Source: an uncultured virus (IMG/VR IMGVR_UViG_3300032309_001794) (Duplodnaviria; Heunggongvirae; Uroviricota; Caudoviricetes). From it: a DNA stretch of 20,000 nt. The stretch lies in IMG/VR virus record IMGVR_UViG_3300032309_001794, one strand, 5' to 3'. Position 1 is the stretch's first letter. Each line of letters opens with the position of its first letter. A program made the position numbers and the translations under genes. Shown here piece by piece: positions 4,896 through 17,049 of the stretch. The notes beneath the pieces were generated by a model. The model was not told the DNA's origin, ran no database searches, and worked only from the letters and a program-made list of their open reading frames with translations.

Positions 4896-6043
4896 TTAAT
4901 AGTGAAGATCAATTTGAAGAATCAAAGTGCGAACTTTGCGGCAAGGTAAAGTCTCCTGACCATACTCATGAGTTTGATAGCCCTGCTCAACAAAAAAGAT
5001 ATGCGCGAGTTACTGCAACACGTCCAGTAAATCCAGAGGTTTCAACTGCAAATCCTGTAGATTACGCTAGAGAACGAATGCTTGAACAAACTGCAGATCC
5101 AGCAGAAGCAGCTAGAACTCTTGGAAGAATTGCTCAAACTGAATCTACTTCACAAAAAACTGGGTACGACCCAAGAACAGGTAGATCAACATTAGCTAGT
5201 GGTTTGCGTGAGCTTAGAGGCGGAACATTTAACGGCGGCATGAGCACAAGTGCCTCAGCTCATGTTGCAGGCCTGGGATCCTCACTTAAAAGTCATCCAG
5301 CTTACGCAGCTTTTCACAAAGTCCATGTAACTCTTAAAGACCATAGTCAAGTTCCTACTGCATCTGTCATTGGTGGGGGAGAACAAAGCAGCCGCATTAT
5401 TCCTAGAGCTTTAGGAAGATTCCACATTGGTGCTGTAGAACCAGGTAGTCAAGATGGAGTATCAGGCATCCATGTAAACGGGACGTTCTACCCAGATGAC
5501 AAAGTACATAGTGTTGATTATGTAAAAGACGCTGGAGCTCCTAAGAAAACAACGGCAAACGGACAAGAAGACATGTCTCTTGATGAACAAAGGGAATGGT
5601 ACGACAAGTCTGAGCAATCAGTTAAAGATAGACTTTCTTACGAATTAGAAGCAACGCAAAAACTTGAAAACCGTAAACCAGATATTGTTTCTAGGCGCGT
5701 TGAGGACGCTTCAAGAGCCTCACAACGAGCAAAAGAAAAATCTGCTTTGGTAGATAAACTTGGAGAAGAAGGAGCGGCAGAAGCTGAAGGAAAAGCTGCT
5801 CACATTAATAGAATTTATGAAGCGGCTAAACTCCATGGAATAAGCATTCCTCAGCCTGATATAAATTCTCCAACTCTTGAAGTAAGAGCACAACGTGCAG
5901 GCCTTAAAGACGAACATCTTGCAGCGTATGATTCTCTTATTAAACAAAGAACATCTAGTGGTTACAGTGGGTACATTCCTACACAGCCAGAAAAACTTTG
6001 GTTTACAACCGACCCCCTACCCTATCAAAAGAAGGATATATAA
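4892..6043 (+). CDS. Hypothetical protein, N-terminal CxxC-x7-HxH, largely low complexity
   Basis: 383 aa ORF, translationally coupled to the upstream gene. Confidence 0.8.
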   Translation: MINSEDQFEESKCELCGKVKSPDHTHEFDSPAQQKRYARVTATRPVNPEVSTANPVDYARERMLEQTADPAEAARTLGRIAQTESTSQKTGYDPRTGRSTLASGLRELRGGTFNGGMSTSASAHVAGLGSSLKSHPAYAAFHKVHVTLKDHSQVPTASVIGGGEQSSRIIPRALGRFHIGAVEPGSQDGVSGIHVNGTFYPDDKVHSVDYVKDAGAPKKTTANGQEDMSLDEQREWYDKSEQSVKDRLSYELEATQKLENRKPDIVSRRVEDASRASQRAKEKSALVDKLGEEGAAEAEGKAAHINRIYEAAKLHGISIPQPDINSPTLEVRAQRAGLKDEHLAAYDSLIKQRTSSGYSGYIPTQPEKLWFTTDPLPYQKKDI

Positions 6044-6044
6044 A

Positions 6045-6338
6045 ATGACAGTTAACAACTCTAGATCTCAAAATGAGTCTATGAATGAAGGCGCAACAGA
6101 TGGTAAGTACCGCAAGGTTCGCCCAAATACAACTGTTGCACCAGGTCTTGGCGACGAAATAGTTCGTGCTAACCGTAATGATCTACACCCATTCAACAAC
6201 TATGGTTTTATTGATGTTGAAGAAAAAGACAAGGTATCTCCTGGAAGTACCAAAGTCAAAGGTAATAGCACCGCTCGTGCGTATGCATCTGCGACTGCTT
6301 ACATGAGAAATTACATGACAAACGATCAAGATCAGTAA
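6045..6338 (+). CDS. Hypothetical protein (97 aa)
   Basis: Start moved from 5895 to ATG 6045 (MTVNNSRSQN...), which has SD AAGGA and removes a 149-nt overlap. Confidence 0.75.
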   Translation: MTVNNSRSQNESMNEGATDGKYRKVRPNTTVAPGLGDEIVRANRNDLHPFNNYGFIDVEEKDKVSPGSTKVKGNSTARAYASATAYMRNYMTNDQDQ

Positions 6339-15426: not shown

Positions 15427-15915
15427 TTAACCTATTTCCTTTACTATTGAGCGTTCTATAACTAACGCTGGTTGTTGTTTTAAATCGGTAGGCCACAGAT
15501 AGGGAAGGTTATCTTCAACATCCCAACCAAATTTACCGTAGTACTCAGGGTCTTTACGAAGCAAGTTAGATCTATGAGAGTCAATTACATCTTGGTTTTT
15601 AATCCAATCTGGATATATAACTTCCCCGTTACTAAGTTTTAATGCTTCCGTTAAAAAGTCCATAAATTTATCTTTACAGGTGTCTTTGTAACCTCTATTT
15701 TTCCATTCATAGCACATTTCTAACCCATACATACATAAAGCTGTTTCGTAGCCTTTCCACATTTTTGCAGCTGGGTGGTTGACCCAACCTACGGTGTAGC
15801 CTAGGTTGGCTTTAAGAATTTGTATTGCCTCTACCCGTTGTTTTCCTAGACGTTTGTAGTCAAGAATTGTAGCTGAAACATAAAAATTCTCATCAGGTAA
15901 AAAAGTGTTAACCAT
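15427..15915 (-). CDS. Pyrimidine dimer DNA glycosylase / endonuclease V-like (MSMEG_6728 family)
   Basis: NTFLP, LD.KRLGKQRVEA.QIL, GW.NHPA..MW.GYE.AL, EW..RGY.DT, SHRSNLLRKDPEYY, LPY.WP. Confidence 0.9.
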   Translation of the reverse strand: MVNTFLPDENFYVSATILDYKRLGKQRVEAIQILKANLGYTVGWVNHPAAKMWKGYETALCMYGLEMCYEWKNRGYKDTCKDKFMDFLTEALKLSNGEVIYPDWIKNQDVIDSHRSNLLRKDPEYYGKFGWDVEDNLPYLWPTDLKQQPALVIERSIVKEIG

Positions 15916-16097
15916 TAAACCTCAATTTTATTTGATTTAACTTGATCAATTATTTCTTGCAGACGGCTGATACCTACGTACATATGCTGAGGTACAGCGT
16001 CTTTACGCGCTTCAGCCATAATTAAATCACAAATACTTGCAATTAAATCATTGGTGTGATTAATTATTGTTTCTACTGTTGGATATTTTTCACCCAT
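15915..16097 (-). CDS. Small helical hypothetical protein (60 aa)
   Basis: Start moved to ATG 16097 (MGEKYPTV...), which has SD AAGGAG. Overlaps the hicA-like stop by 8 nt. Confidence 0.7.
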   Translation of the reverse strand: MGEKYPTVETIINHTNDLIASICDLIMAEARKDAVPQHMYVGISRLQEIIDQVKSNKIEV

Positions 16098-16380
16098 TTG
16101 ATTGCTCCTTTTTCTTTGTAGACGTGCCCTTAAATATAGACACGTCAAACCCTATTTGACGTAGAGTCATGTACATGTTTTCCCGTTGACGACCATTACC
16201 AGCTGGTGTAGATGGAATGGTTGCTTGTTGCCCCGTCTTTAGGTTCTTAATCTTTATGTGCTTGTTACCTTTTTTAGTGCATTCAAAACCTGCGCGATCT
16301 AACTCACGCACAACTCTTCTTATTTCTTTATTAGGGGAGATCATTGCAAGCGCAAATACCCCTGGTTTATTATTTTTCAT
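16090..16380 (-). CDS. hicA: HicA-like dsRBD-fold RNase/toxin
   Basis: KEIR.VV..L..AGF.....GNKHIKI......ATIPSTP, with the His in the GxxH loop retained. SD AGGAGG at 16385-16390. Confidence 0.75.
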   Translation of the reverse strand: MKNNKPGVFALAMISPNKEIRRVVRELDRAGFECTKKGNKHIKIKNLKTGQQATIPSTPAGNGRQRENMYMTLRQIGFDVSIFKGTSTKKKEQSNG

Positions 16381-16382
16381 AG

Positions 16383-16477
16383 TGCCTCCTATTGAAAATA
16401 GGCGGCAGAAGGACAGTACAGTACTTTTGCGAATAACCGACTTAGATTTCTTGCACCTTCAGCTGCCTCACCTATTT
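16383..16477 (-). promoter_or_regulatory. Structured tRNA trailer / hicA 5' leader with alternative pairings
   Basis: Segment 16396-16408 is complementary both to 16383-16393 (contains the SD) and to 16463-16477. Confidence 0.55.
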
Positions 16478-16478
16478 G

Positions 16479-16551
16479 TACCCCCAGCTGGATTCGAACC
16501 AGCGACCTTAACATTAGAAGTGTTTCGCTCTATCCACTGAGCTATGGGGGT
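16479..16551 (-). tRNA. tRNA-Arg (anticodon TCT, reads AGA)
   Basis: ACCCCCA TA GCTC AGTGGATA GAGC G AAACA CT TCT AA TGTTA AGGTC GCTGG TTCGAAT CCAGC TGGGGGT A. The A20 Arg identity element is present. CCA is not encoded. Confidence 0.95.
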
Positions 16552-16552
16552 T

Positions 16553-16598
16553 AGATATTGGCTGAAGTGAAAGGAGATAACGTCTTCAGCCAATATCT
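16553..16598 (-). other. Perfect 15-bp inverted repeat directly 5' of the tRNA
   Basis: + strand reads AGATATTGGCTGAAG - TGAAAGGAGATAACGT - CTTCAGCCAATATCT. Confidence 0.85.
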
Positions 16599-16600
16599 GT

Positions 16601-16792
16601 TTATTTTACCACAGACTTTTTATGGCAATCGCAACCACAAGTAACCGTATCCCCTGGTTTATGGTTCGCGCTTTCTGTAGCAGTTACATAAGATTTTGGG
16701 CAACTTTCATGGTCTACCTCATTAGGCCATCCTCCACACCAACCGAATGTAAAGGTTGACGGTTTGTTTGTGTTGGGCTTACTTTTTGTCAT
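16601..16792 (-). CDS. Small Cys/His-rich putative Zn-binding protein
   Basis: FGWC...HESC...CGCDCH. Start moved to ATG 16792 (ATGA overlap, SD GGAG). Confidence 0.7.
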   Translation of the reverse strand: MTKSKPNTNKPSTFTFGWCGGWPNEVDHESCPKSYVTATESANHKPGDTVTCGCDCHKKSVVK

Positions 16793-17049
16793 AGCTCCCA
16801 TTCAATGTCTCCGGCTTCTCCATTAAGAATTTTATCACTGGAAGTTTTAATAATCCTTGAGTCATTCTCAAAGTTTTCATTCAACCACTCATAGAATTCT
16901 TCAGCGTACTCAAAACGAATGTCTTCCTCATGTTCTGGAAAACCATCTTCGTCTCTAACTGTGTCTTTAAAGTCTAGCCAGACTTCTTCTGGAAATTCAT
17001 AGGTCTCTAGATACATAACTGTTGCTAGCAAAGTATCGTGTATTTTCAT
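16789..17049 (-). CDS. Highly acidic hypothetical protein
   Basis: 86 aa ORF with SD GAGGAG. Confidence 0.75.
   Translation of the reverse strand: MKIHDTLLATVMYLETYEFPEEVWLDFKDTVRDEDGFPEHEEDIRFEYAEEFYEWLNENFENDSRIIKTSSDKILNGEAGDIEWEL

What the first reader, a model, noticed from the sequence alone, without database searches (positions are those of the whole stretch)
16383..16477. tRNA 3' trailer forms a two-state switch over the hicA ribosome-binding site
Seen: on the - transcript the tRNA-Arg 3' end is followed by element A' (AAAUAGGUGAGGCAG, 16477-16463), about 55 nt of spacer, element B (CUGCCGCCUAUUU, 16408-16396) and element A (AAUAGGAGGCA, 16393-16383). A contains the hicA SD, AGGAGG. 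B pairs with A as a local hairpin (UGCC-G-CCUAUU/UUC/AAUAGG-A-GGCA, 10 of 11 bp) that buries the SD. B can instead pair with A' (7+5 bp, extended by AAGG/CCUU), which frees the SD. A' is a near copy of A with a 2-nt insertion. Established: this is the anti-SD/anti-anti-SD logic of riboswitch expression platforms and toxin leaders. Inference: translation of an RNase toxin with no visible antitoxin is controlled in cis and may be coupled to tRNA processing or to a ligand or protein that binds the spacer. I do not recognise this as a described family.
Basis: partly seen in the sequence, partly recalled or inferred. Interest (0 to 1): 0.8.

Follow-up and report, generated by a model that had tools for sequence, protein, structure and literature searches.

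The report
Conserved folded RNA behind phage tRNA
The stretch between a phage tRNA gene and the next gene is one copy of a conserved folded RNA that follows this tRNA in related lake phages; it is probably a processing or stability element, not a switch for the neighbouring toxin-like gene.

Summary
Observation confirmed. A', B and A lie where stated. B:A is a -11.9 kcal/mol hairpin over the AGGAGG site. In folding models of the window, A':B and B:A are about equally likely.

The comparative evidence separates the two helices. A':B is the closing stem of an ~85-nt structured RNA that starts 0-2 nt after tRNA-Arg(UCU) in 8 related uncultured freshwater phage loci.
- Covariation: 88% of cells paired against 42-48% for slid controls, and 12 of 28 pairs carry double changes.
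- Rfam has no match.
- The gene after the element varies, so the element belongs to the tRNA, not to hicA.

B:A is not conserved. It is 46.6% paired, the same as shuffles. Contigs from four other runs share the window's layout, and all carry A instead of C16384. Across three haplotypes rebuilt from them, B:A drops to -7.5, -7.5 and -3.8 kcal/mol and A':B dominates.

Other tRNAs of these phages are also flanked by helices.

Best reading: a tRNA-flank processing or stability module. A regulated two-state switch is unlikely (~8%). "No antitoxin" is doubtful, because a small ORF overlaps the hicA-like stop codon in 12 of 12 relatives.

The parts
16553..16598 (-). Hairpin that ends 1 nt before the tRNA 5' end. 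It has a 15-bp perfect stem (16598-16584 with 16567-16553) and a 16-nt loop holding CUCCUUUCA (16576-16568), a copy of the anti-Shine-Dalgarno end of 16S rRNA.
   Evidence: Alignment A4 of 10 loci gives 15 pairs, 10 of them with compensatory changes, and the loop motif is invariant.
16478..16551 (-). tRNA-Arg, anticodon UCU. CCA is not encoded.
   Evidence: ARAGORN; Rfam RF00005 at 71.1 bits. It is the only tRNA in the 29-kb record.
16393..16479 (-). The whole structured RNA element (type 1) as matched by the covariance model R1.
   Evidence: R1 match of 47.2 bits, E 1.3e-10, over model positions 1-86. Homologues score 65.9-95.7 bits in 8 loci.
16463..16477 (-). A': the 5' strand of closing helix P1 and of outer P2. 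It is purine-rich and SD-like.
   Evidence: Covariation is shown. Close relatives carry compensatory changes at G16472/C16401 and at A16477/U16396.
16409..16462 (-). Core of the element: inner helices and conserved unpaired bases (GCAA..UAAGU hairpin ..AGUA).
   Evidence: Invariant columns in A3. Only one difference in this core (16421) is listed in the X2/X4 haplotype, against 11 substitutions and 1 deletion listed in its outer parts (A', B, the B:A loop and A).
16396..16408 (-). B: the 3' strand of P1/P2. In this window it can also pair with A.
16383..16393 (-). A: the ribosome-binding region of the next ORF (AGGAGG 16390-16385). It corresponds to the SD of whichever ORF follows the element in relatives.
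   Evidence: C16384 is replaced by A in the contigs of all 4 other runs.
16090..16380 (-). HicA-like ORF, 96 aa.
   Evidence: Pfam PF07927 E 0.0076, 16.8 bits, below the cut-off of 27. phrog_2089 1.4e-8. 22 homologues. AlphaFold2 model is alpha-beta-beta-beta-alpha, pLDDT 75.6. Foldseek puts E. coli HicA 6hpb_A first at E 0.062.
15915..16097 (-). 60-aa helical ORF whose ATG overlaps the HicA-like stop codon (ATGGGTGA). It is a candidate partner of the HicA-like protein.
   Evidence: An ORF of 66-84 aa sits in the same overlapping position in 12 of 12 loci. Alignment A5 has 33% mean column identity.

Best explanation
Shown:
- The 97-nt tRNA-to-ORF spacer is the window's divergent copy of a conserved ~85-nt structured RNA.
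- In a group of uncultured freshwater phages this RNA begins 0-2 nt after tRNA-Arg(UCU) and ends 8-25 nt before the ribosome-binding site of whatever ORF comes next.
- The tRNA lies inside a polycistronic unit.
- A covarying 15-bp hairpin abuts its 5' end.
- Other tRNAs of these phages are likewise flanked by helices.

Inferred mechanism:
- RNase P and an RNase Z-type cut release the tRNA from the mRNA. No CCA is encoded, which points to an RNase Z-type cut.
- The upstream hairpin then forms an exonuclease-resistant 3' end on the upstream mRNA piece.
- The downstream element forms a structured 5'-monophosphate end that shields the downstream mRNA from 5'-end-dependent decay.
- Both flanks also keep the tRNA folding on its own.
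- The SD just 3' of the element normally stays free.

The B:A hairpin: it is a by-product in this one sequence. The P1 5' strand is SD-like in the whole family, so its partner B is anti-SD-like. In this lineage the linker to the SD is only 3 nt. The C at 16384 adds the pairs that make B:A competitive. B:A may lower HicA-like translation here, but it is not a selected switch.
For: Structure:
- RNAalifold on the MAFFT alignment A2 finds 17 P1/P2 pairs, 9 with compensatory changes.
- With the hand-drawn structure on A3, 88.3% of cells pair against 41.6-48.2% when partners are slid. 12 of 28 pairs carry double changes against 3-8 when slid. 0 of 500 shuffles reach these values. Statistics on the model-made alignment A6 are almost identical.
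- Selection acts within the window's own lineage. G16472:C16401 changes to A:U in the X2/X4 contigs, and A16477:U16396 changes to G:C in the X3 contig.

Link to the tRNA rather than to hicA:
- tRNA-Arg(tct) is upstream in all 15 loci that reach far enough.
- The element is single-copy per record and always directly behind that tRNA.
- The ORF that follows differs between loci.

Generic flank design:
- Where type 1 is absent, a different helix takes the same place: a 12-bp helix in L002 (run length), a 114-nt 'type 2' element in L012, and a 77-nt 'type 3' element in L016/L017.
- 16 of 18 tRNA 3' flanks have an uninterrupted helix scoring at least 20 that starts within 3 nt of the tRNA end. These include 3 of the 4 other tRNAs (Met, Asn, Met, Cys). 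Only 2.4% of 3000 random positions do so. 12 of 18 5' flanks also reach that score.

Operon context: the spacer holds no terminator. The one promoter-like site near it (16398-16369, 9 of 12 matches) is no better than chance, 8 sites found against 8.4 expected in the scanned region. The next strong terminator is at 15123-15092.

B:A is not selected.

Background on end protection: passages of the review PMC3997798 read. A 5'-monophosphate stimulates RNase E and RNase J attack, and a hairpin at or near the 5' end stabilises downstream mRNA.
Against: - No transcript data exist. No RNA run holds the sequence, so the cuts, the ends and any stabilisation are inferred.
- A purely generic hairpin role does not explain the invariant unpaired bases of the type-1 core or the invariant CUCCUUUCA loop of the upstream hairpin. 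Both suggest sequence-specific recognition.
- The alignment has only 9 sequences from one phage group, and relatedness inflates shuffle tests.
- One of the four other tRNAs (L153) has only an interrupted 3'-flank helix (score 11), and L154 lacks a 5'-flank hairpin.
- The variant haplotypes rest on an incomplete difference table (38 differences were not listed).
Confidence: 0.5

Rival explanations
1. The trailer is a two-state translational switch. B pairs either with A (SD buried, HicA-like protein off) or with A' (SD free, on), and the balance is set by tRNA processing or by a factor that binds the spacer.
For: - In the window the two helices are mutually exclusive and close in energy. The SD-free fold is -21.2 kcal/mol and the SD-paired fold is -24.8 kcal/mol. 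P(A':B) is 0.23-0.54 and P(B:A) is 0.30-0.51.
- Attaching the tRNA shifts the model from A':B 0.50 / B:A 0.34 to 0.26 / 0.49.
- Removing A' gives P(B:A) 0.94.
- The B:A hairpin is in the top 0.4% of 28-nt windows.
Against: - B:A pairing is at shuffle level in 8 relatives (46.6% against 47.1%; 386 of 500 shuffles reach it). In those relatives P1 stays formed in both constrained folds.
- All 4 other runs that share the window's layout carry A at 16384, which breaks the G16406-C16384 pair.
- With the listed natural differences B:A falls to -7.5, -7.5 and -3.8 kcal/mol. P(B:A) is 0.00 and P(A':B) is 0.55-0.99.
- The C16401>U change is compensated in A':B but only tolerated as a wobble in B:A.
- The shift caused by the tRNA is within the error of nearest-neighbour models.
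- The element is not tied to hicA.
Confidence: 0.08
2. The element is a separate stable RNA, a small RNA or protein-binding RNA. tRNA processing releases it, and it acts in trans, by analogy with 3'ETS-leuZ of E. coli or the T4 stable RNAs encoded among its tRNA genes.
For: - The core has invariant unpaired bases, and few differences are listed there, whereas the stems vary with compensation.
- It is single-copy and always behind the same tRNA.
- Its 5' end would be made by the tRNA 3' cut.
- The neighbouring upstream hairpin shows an invariant anti-SD loop, which suggests RNA-RNA targeting in this cassette.
- Unchecked earlier notes of this scan describe anti-SD RNAs linked to tRNAs in other phages.
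Against: - There is no terminator or other evident 3'-end signal between P1 and the next SD.
- Unrelated hairpins replace the element at the same place.
- No target and no transcript are known.
Confidence: 0.2
3. The element and the upstream hairpin are RNase III-type processing signals. They would work like the irregular hairpins between the early genes of phage T7 and cut the polycistronic RNA next to the tRNA.
For: - P1 plus P2 form about 18 nearly continuous base pairs topped by internal loops.
- The upstream stem is 15 perfect pairs.
- Both lie between cistrons of one transcription unit.
Against: - The stems are shorter than the roughly two helical turns usual for RNase III substrates (recalled knowledge).
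- RNase P and RNase Z already provide cuts at exactly these borders.
- No cleavage data exist.
Confidence: 0.1
4. The element is a ligand-sensing riboswitch aptamer whose P1 controls the adjacent ribosome-binding site.
For: - The core is conserved and closed by P1, and it lies 8-25 nt upstream of an SD.
- The P1 3' strand is pyrimidine-rich and could pair with an SD.
Against: - P1 plus P2 are very stable in relatives (MFE -31 to -42 kcal/mol, with P1 formed in all of them).
- The downstream genes are unrelated to one another.
- Plain hairpins substitute for it.
- There is no Rfam match.
Confidence: 0.03

Closest known systems
Anti-SD / anti-anti-SD expression platforms (translational riboswitches such as the add adenine riboswitch; processing-activated type I toxin leaders such as hok and tisB). 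Recalled knowledge.
   Same: In the window one strand (B) can pair either with the SD region or with an upstream SD-like strand, giving two near-isoenergetic folds.
   Different: - Only one of the two helices is conserved.
- The balance vanishes in the nearest natural variants.
- No ligand or processing trigger is known.
- The element is not linked to one gene.
5'-terminal stabiliser hairpins and 3'-terminal protective hairpins of bacterial mRNAs (review PMC3997798, passages read).
   Same: The helices begin 0-3 nt from the ends that tRNA excision would create. These are the positions at which such hairpins block 5'-end-dependent RNases and 3' exonucleases.
   Different: - Here the ends would be made by tRNA processing inside a phage operon.
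- The 3'-flank element is an elaborate, sequence-conserved 85-nt RNA, not a plain hairpin.
- Stabilisation has not been tested.
tRNA punctuation of polycistronic transcripts (mitochondria; plant t-elements; MALAT1-mascRNA). Recalled knowledge; listing (PMC5716156, PMC8457004, titles and abstract starts only).
   Same: A tRNA inside a longer transcript serves as the cutting signal that separates the flanking RNAs.
   Different: - This is a bacterial virus, and a real decoding tRNA is kept.
- Dedicated covarying hairpins sit on both flanks.
3'ETS-leuZ of E. coli, and the stable RNAs C and D of the phage T4 tRNA cluster. Recalled knowledge; one search gave only a listing, and one search found no paper on the T4 RNAs.
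   Same: A non-tRNA structured RNA is co-transcribed with a tRNA and released by tRNA processing.
   Different: - 3'ETS-leuZ ends at a terminator and sponges known small RNAs.
- Here an ORF follows directly, no terminator is present, and no target is known.
- No sequence or Rfam similarity was found.
tRNA-linked hairpins of murine gammaherpesvirus 68 (tRNA-like element followed by pre-miRNA hairpins that tRNase Z frees), and engineered tRNA-shRNA constructs (PMC1885648, listing only; the rest is recalled).
   Same: A hairpin starts directly after a tRNA-type structure, so the tRNA 3' endonuclease defines the hairpin's 5' end.
   Different: That is a eukaryotic system producing microRNAs. Nothing suggests such a product here.

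Membership tests
Any Rfam 15 family | A covariance-model match on the trailer at or near the family's gathering score | tested here: not met
   Scanning the window 15800-17000 at E up to 10 gave only the tRNA above threshold and nothing on 16381-16477. Eleven related loci at E up to 1 gave only tRNAs above threshold and no match on the trailer elements.
Two-state anti-SD translational switch | Two mutually exclusive helices that share one strand, one of them covering the SD | tested here: met
   Met in the window sequence only.
Two-state anti-SD translational switch | Both alternative helices maintained in evolution | tested here: not met
   A':B covaries. B:A is 46.6% paired against a shuffle mean of 47.1%. 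B:A is also weakened in all close variants.
Two-state anti-SD translational switch | Constant association with the regulated gene | tested here: not met
   Different ORFs follow the element in relatives. The hicA-like gene lies 125-1394 nt from the tRNA.
Riboswitch | A conserved ligand-binding core with ligand-dependent P1 formation | not testable with these tools
   The core is conserved, but P1/P2 are very stable without any ligand.
Intrinsic (Rho-independent) terminator | A GC-rich hairpin followed by a run of U | tested here: not met
   No terminator-like site lies in 16381-16477 or at the upstream hairpin. The nearest on the - strand are inside or beyond the ORFs, with a strong one at 15123-15092.
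5'-terminal mRNA stabiliser hairpin | The helix begins within a few nt of the RNA's 5' end | tested here: inconclusive
   The helix starts 0-3 nt after the tRNA end in 16 of 18 flanks, against 2.4% of random positions. The actual cut site has not been mapped.
5'-terminal mRNA stabiliser hairpin | It lengthens the half-life of the downstream mRNA | not testable with these tools
   No RNA data are available.
HicA toxin (Pfam PF07927) | Score at or above Pfam's gathering cut-off | tested here: not met
   16.8 bits against a cut-off of 27, E 0.0076. Three of the 22 homologues carry a precomputed PF07927 hit. A profile search of PDB sequences found no HicA.
HicA toxin (Pfam PF07927) | A dsRBD-like alpha-beta-beta-beta-alpha fold | tested here: met
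   The AlphaFold2 model has H18-29, E32-37, E41-46, E52-56 and H63-75, with pLDDT 75.6. HicA chains rank 1 and 4 (6hpb_A and 6hpb_C) and 28 (6g26_E), and 1whz (deposited only as a hypothetical protein) ranks 2, all with weak E-values of 0.06-0.45.
HicA toxin (Pfam PF07927) | A catalytic histidine | tested here: inconclusive
   H41 is invariant in 23 sequences. Its equivalence to the HicA active-site His was not checked residue by residue.
HicAB toxin-antitoxin pair | A HicB antitoxin gene directly downstream | tested here: inconclusive
   The downstream ORF has no Pfam family. A small helical ORF overlaps the stop codon in 12 of 12 loci.

The most novel reading that the evidence does not exclude
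The tRNA-Arg of these lake phages sits in an undescribed riboregulatory cassette with two parts. The first is an upstream covarying hairpin that displays an invariant copy of the 16S rRNA anti-SD end (CUCCUUUCA). The second is a downstream 85-nt RNA whose closing stem is built from an SD-like strand and an anti-SD-like strand. Together they would couple tRNA excision to ribosome access on the flanking genes. In the window's allele the downstream module has become a truly bistable leader that throttles a HicA-like RNase.
Probability: 0.12. Interest if true: 0.75.

Novelty: new variant of a known kind. Interest (0 to 1): 0.45.

Why it matters
- It replaces an attractive but unsupported 'toxin riboswitch' reading with a tested one: an uncatalogued structured RNA family tied to a phage tRNA.
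- It shows that these phages build their tRNAs into mRNAs between end-sealing helices.
- If the processing and stability model holds, it describes a compact way for phages to carry a tRNA inside an operon without losing the flanking messages.
- The invariant anti-SD loop next to the tRNA adds to repeated, still unexplained sightings of 16S-end mimics beside phage tRNAs. This makes the question testable with a simple cassette in a laboratory host.

Tried and rejected
- Phage records (GenBank/INPHARED): blastn with the window region matched only tRNAs. tblastn with the HicA-like protein found nothing. blastn with a relative's element and with its upstream hairpin found nothing.
- Viral contigs: exact scans with the B-A hairpin and with the core gave 0 hits. 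The protein-only scan gave 0 relatives.
- Two degenerate core patterns gave 9 and at least 120 stretches. The 9 stretches look unrelated by eye and carry no tRNA. Of the at least 120, the 80 whose flanking DNA was fetched (L028-L107) were scored with R1 and none matched beyond three 15-bit hits; the rest were not examined.
- Genome contigs: one weak partial HicA-like match in an Anaerolinea MAG, of no use.
- Sequencing runs: no RNA holder listed.
- Complex prediction for the HicA-like protein with the downstream ORF was not available, so binding is untested.
- tblastn of the 60-aa downstream ORF against 12 loci gave no hit at E up to 1e-3. Its relatives were recognised only by position and pattern.
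- My first flank statistic (energy of a closed domain) was useless, because random positions scored a mean of -15.3 kcal/mol. It was replaced by the uninterrupted-helix score.
- The '>' constraint was not enforced in some relatives (ddG 0.0), so those rows show only that P1 persists.
- PMC10690425 reports about 8,500 candidate structured RNAs from IMG/VR. I read passages. Three of its six supplementary files (1-3) could not be searched; files 4-6 were read and held none of the terms tried (motifs and sample ids). I therefore cannot say whether these motifs are already in that catalogue.
- Ideas rejected: a conserved small ORF inside the element (starts and stops are not conserved); T-box-like pairing of an AGA triplet with the anticodon (AGA is absent from three members); pairing of the upstream anti-SD loop with P1's 5' strand (complementary only in L005, L014 and L015, by eye).
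Full report
WHAT IS IN THE WINDOW

The window is part of a 29-kb uncultured-virus record estimated to be about 32% complete. On the - strand the order of features is as follows:
- A 66-aa Cys-rich ORF.
- A perfect 15-bp hairpin (16598-16553).
- tRNA-Arg(UCU) (16551-16478).
- A 97-nt spacer.
- A 96-aa ORF starting at 16380.
- A 60-aa ORF whose ATG overlaps that ORF's stop codon.
- A DenV-type pyrimidine-dimer glycosylase (Pfam PF03013, 4.2e-20).
- One more ORF of 97 aa (15425-15132), then a strong terminator at 15123-15092.

The spacer holds no terminator. The one promoter-like site near it (16398-16369, 9 of 12 matches) is no better than chance. The tRNA therefore sits inside a polycistronic unit.

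CHECK OF THE OBSERVATION

- B:A forms 10 of 11 pairs and folds at -11.9 kcal/mol. Only 0.4% of 28-nt windows of this strand do as well, at 16 places in 20 kb.
- A':B also forms (cofold -18.7 kcal/mol).
- The two compete. The MFE of the spacer contains B:A and the centroid contains A':B.
- Mean pair probabilities are 0.23-0.54 for A':B and 0.30-0.51 for B:A.
- There is a modest shift toward A':B once the tRNA is removed. Without A', P(B:A) is 0.94.
- The spacer as a whole folds no better than shuffles (z -0.99).

Its meaning has to come from comparison with relatives.

RELATIVES

The 96-aa protein has 22 homologues of 60-94% identity in metagenomes. Protein-guided scans gave 5 viral and 12 metagenomic loci, several of which are duplicates of one another. 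A tRNA-Arg(tct) lies upstream in every locus that extends far enough. The distance from the tRNA to the hicA-like gene ranges from 97 to 1394 nt, and other small ORFs intervene.

What is conserved is the RNA directly behind the tRNA. In 8 non-redundant loci an ~85-nt element starts 0-2 nt after the tRNA. It ends 8-25 nt before the SD of the next ORF, whatever that ORF is.

THE A':B HELIX IS THE CLOSING STEM OF THAT ELEMENT

- On a plain MAFFT alignment RNAalifold predicts 17 pairs (P1 and P2), 9 of them with compensatory changes.
- With a hand-drawn structure (P1 12 pairs, P2 6, P3 7, P4 3), 88.3% of cells pair against 41.6-48.2% when the partners are slid by 1-3 columns.
- 12 of 28 pairs carry double changes against 3-8 when slid.
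- No shuffle out of 500 reaches the observed values. Nearly identical figures come from the model-made alignment.
- A covariance model finds one copy per record, always behind tRNA-Arg. Scores are 47.2 bits in the window and 65.9-95.7 bits elsewhere. It finds none in G001, where a plain helix takes the same place.
- Rfam has no match in the window or in 11 relatives.
- GenBank phage records have nothing similar.

THE B:A HELIX IS NOT CONSERVED

The shuffle mean is 47.1%, 386 of 500 shuffles reach the observed value, and the slid controls give 30-58%.
- In relatives P1 stays formed in both the 'SD free' and the 'SD paired' constrained folds. Where the SD pairs at all, it pairs with a separate pyrimidine tract.

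The decisive evidence came from contigs of four other public DNA runs that share the window's own tRNA-97 nt-ORF layout.
- In RNA sense, all four carry A in place of C16384. This breaks the G16406-C16384 pair of B:A, and nothing compensates for it.
- The X2/X4 haplotype changes G16472 to A and C16401 to U. This is a compensated pair in A':B, but only a U-G wobble in B:A.
- The X3 haplotype changes A16477 to G and U16396 to C. This is again a compensated A':B pair.
- I applied the listed differences inside a script. B:A then falls from -11.9 to -7.5, -7.5 and -3.8 kcal/mol. P(B:A) becomes 0.00 and P(A':B) becomes 0.55-0.99.
- Caveat: the difference table was truncated, with 38 differences not shown. 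For the X4 record about 19-20 of its 21 differences are listed.

The near-equal balance of the two folds is thus a property of this one sequence. It is not a property of its lineage.

WHY A' LOOKS LIKE A

The 5' strand of P1 is purine-rich and SD-like in the whole family. Examples are GGAAAGGAGG, GAAAAGGAGG, GAAGAGUGGG and, in the window, AAAUAGGUGAGG. Its partner strand is therefore anti-SD-like. In relatives roughly 8-25 nt (read from the sequences) separate P1 from the SD. In the window only 3 nt do, so B can fold back on the SD. The similarity of A' and A follows from both being complementary to B.

A GENERAL FLANK DESIGN

- Where the type-1 element is missing, another helix occupies the same place. 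L002 has a 12-bp uninterrupted helix (run length). L012 has a 114-nt 'type 2' element, which also follows type 1 in L004. L016 and L017 have a 77-nt 'type 3' element.
- The four other tRNAs (Met, Asn, Met, Cys) of three of these phage records also have a hairpin starting 1-3 nt after their 3' end. Three of the four have a strong hairpin ending 3 nt before their 5' end.
- With an uninterrupted-helix score, 16 of 18 tRNA 3' flanks and 12 of 18 5' flanks reach a score of 20. Only 2.4% of 3000 random positions of the window reach it. Many of the 18 are homologous. Counted as 9 independent designs, 8 pass.
- None of these tRNA genes encodes CCA, read from the sequences.

MECHANISM (INFERRED)

- CCA-less precursors are matured by an RNase Z-type cut after the discriminator base. 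This is established knowledge, recalled here.
- Together with RNase P, that cut would sever the operon mRNA on both sides of the tRNA.
- The upstream hairpin would leave a structured 3' end with a 1-3-nt tail.
- The downstream element would leave a structured 5'-monophosphate end with 0-2 free nucleotides.
- According to the review PMC3997798 (passages read), these are the arrangements that hinder 3' exonucleases and the 5'-end-dependent attack of RNase E, RNase J or RNase Y.
- The flanks would also keep the tRNA folding independently of the neighbouring mRNA.

I give this processing and stability reading about 0.5. The structural claim itself (A':B is the P1 stem of a conserved RNA) I put near 0.9.

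This reading leaves two things unexplained: the invariant unpaired bases of the core and the invariant loop of the upstream hairpin. For that reason a separate, sequence-specific RNA function remains the main rival (0.2).

THE NEIGHBOURING PROTEIN

- The 'hicA' label is a distant assignment. Pfam HicA_toxin scores 16.8 bits, below its cut-off of 27. A profile search of PDB sequences found no HicA.
- However, the AlphaFold2 model (pLDDT 75.6) has the alpha-beta-beta-beta-alpha order. Foldseek lists E. coli HicA first at E 0.062, with 1whz and a Burkholderia HicA further down.
- The claim of 'no visible antitoxin' is doubtful. The next ORF starts inside the stop-codon region (ATGGGTGA). An ORF of 66-84 aa with the same helical pattern holds that position in 12 of 12 loci, although it evolves fast. 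tblastn finds no hit for it, and A5 has 33% mean column identity.
- Whether the two proteins bind could not be tested.

COMPARISON WITH WHAT IS KNOWN, AND NOVELTY

- The window sequence works on paper like an anti-SD / anti-anti-SD platform. It fails the membership tests of conservation of both helices and of constant gene association.
- The closest functional analogues are end-protecting mRNA hairpins and tRNA-punctuated transcripts.
- The closest analogues as tRNA-linked RNAs are 3'ETS-leuZ and the T4 stable RNAs (recalled knowledge). No sequence relation to either was found.
- Full-text searches found no description of helices flanking phage tRNAs or of this element.
- One catalogue of candidate viral RNAs (PMC10690425) could not be checked, because its supplements were too large.
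- Earlier unchecked notes of this scan report anti-SD motifs near tRNAs in other phages. I used them only as context.

VERDICT

The two-state control of hicA is not supported by comparison, even with the nearest relatives.

Noticed in passing
window 16553-16598 (- strand); loop motif at 16576-16568: A hairpin ends 1 nt before the tRNA. Across 10 loci it has a 15-bp stem in which 10 of 15 pairs carry compensatory changes. Its 16-18-nt loop has an invariant CUCCUUUCA, a copy of the anti-Shine-Dalgarno end of 16S rRNA. Rfam and the GenBank phage records have no match. Its function is unexplained.
   Followed up: partly
window 15915-16097 (- strand); for example L007:1784-1996 and L009:915-1115: A 60-aa helical ORF overlaps the stop codon of the HicA-like gene. 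A 66-84-aa ORF of the same pattern holds this position in 12 of 12 loci and is duplicated in L005, L014 and L015. It is a possible partner or antitoxin.
   Followed up: partly
L012:473-586, L004:1099-1225, L017:1379-1455, L016:948-1024, L002:1283-1310: Other, unrelated structured trailers sit directly behind the same tRNA slot. There is a ~114-nt 'type 2' long hairpin, which also stands in tandem after type 1 in L004. There is a 77-nt 'type 3' hairpin behind tRNA-Leu or tRNA-Arg. L002 has a 12-bp uninterrupted helix (run length).
   Followed up: partly
L153-L156 (G003 25344-25417 and 35514-35585; G001 5993-6066; G002 48140-48211): The other tRNAs of these phages (Met, Asn, Met, Cys) also have a hairpin 1-3 nt behind them. 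Three of the four have one 3 nt in front as well. None encodes CCA.
   Followed up: yes
L009:544-636, L011:1413-1505, L012:604-696, L005:957-1043 and others: In most relatives the first ORF after the element is a 28-30-aa peptide beginning MISYICGVCYQ, with two Cys pairs that look like a zinc ribbon. It is absent from the window.
   Followed up: no
window 16390-16478, compared with X4 record 15: One public contig has a HicA-like gene about 82% identical in DNA and the same tRNA. Between them the spacer is replaced by 91 bases that do not align at 80% likeness. The letters were not shown. It would be the best test case for B:A.
   Followed up: no
window 16141-16163 (- strand) and 16095-16153: A 10-pair hairpin lies inside the 3' part of the HicA-like ORF, just upstream of the next ORF's SD. 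It overlaps a sub-threshold Rfam hit to DUF2815 RNA (23.9 bits against a gathering score of 41.2, E 0.08). This is probably chance.
   Followed up: no
window 16601-16801 (- strand): The 66-aa ORF upstream of the hairpin is Cys- and His-rich (CGCDCH near its end). It has weak relatives in 4 loci at 34-41% identity. No Pfam or PHROG family matches it.
   Followed up: no
window 15427-15915 (- strand): A DenV-type pyrimidine-dimer DNA glycosylase (Pfam PF03013, 4.2e-20). It is conserved downstream in all 12 loci at 54-63% identity.
   Followed up: no
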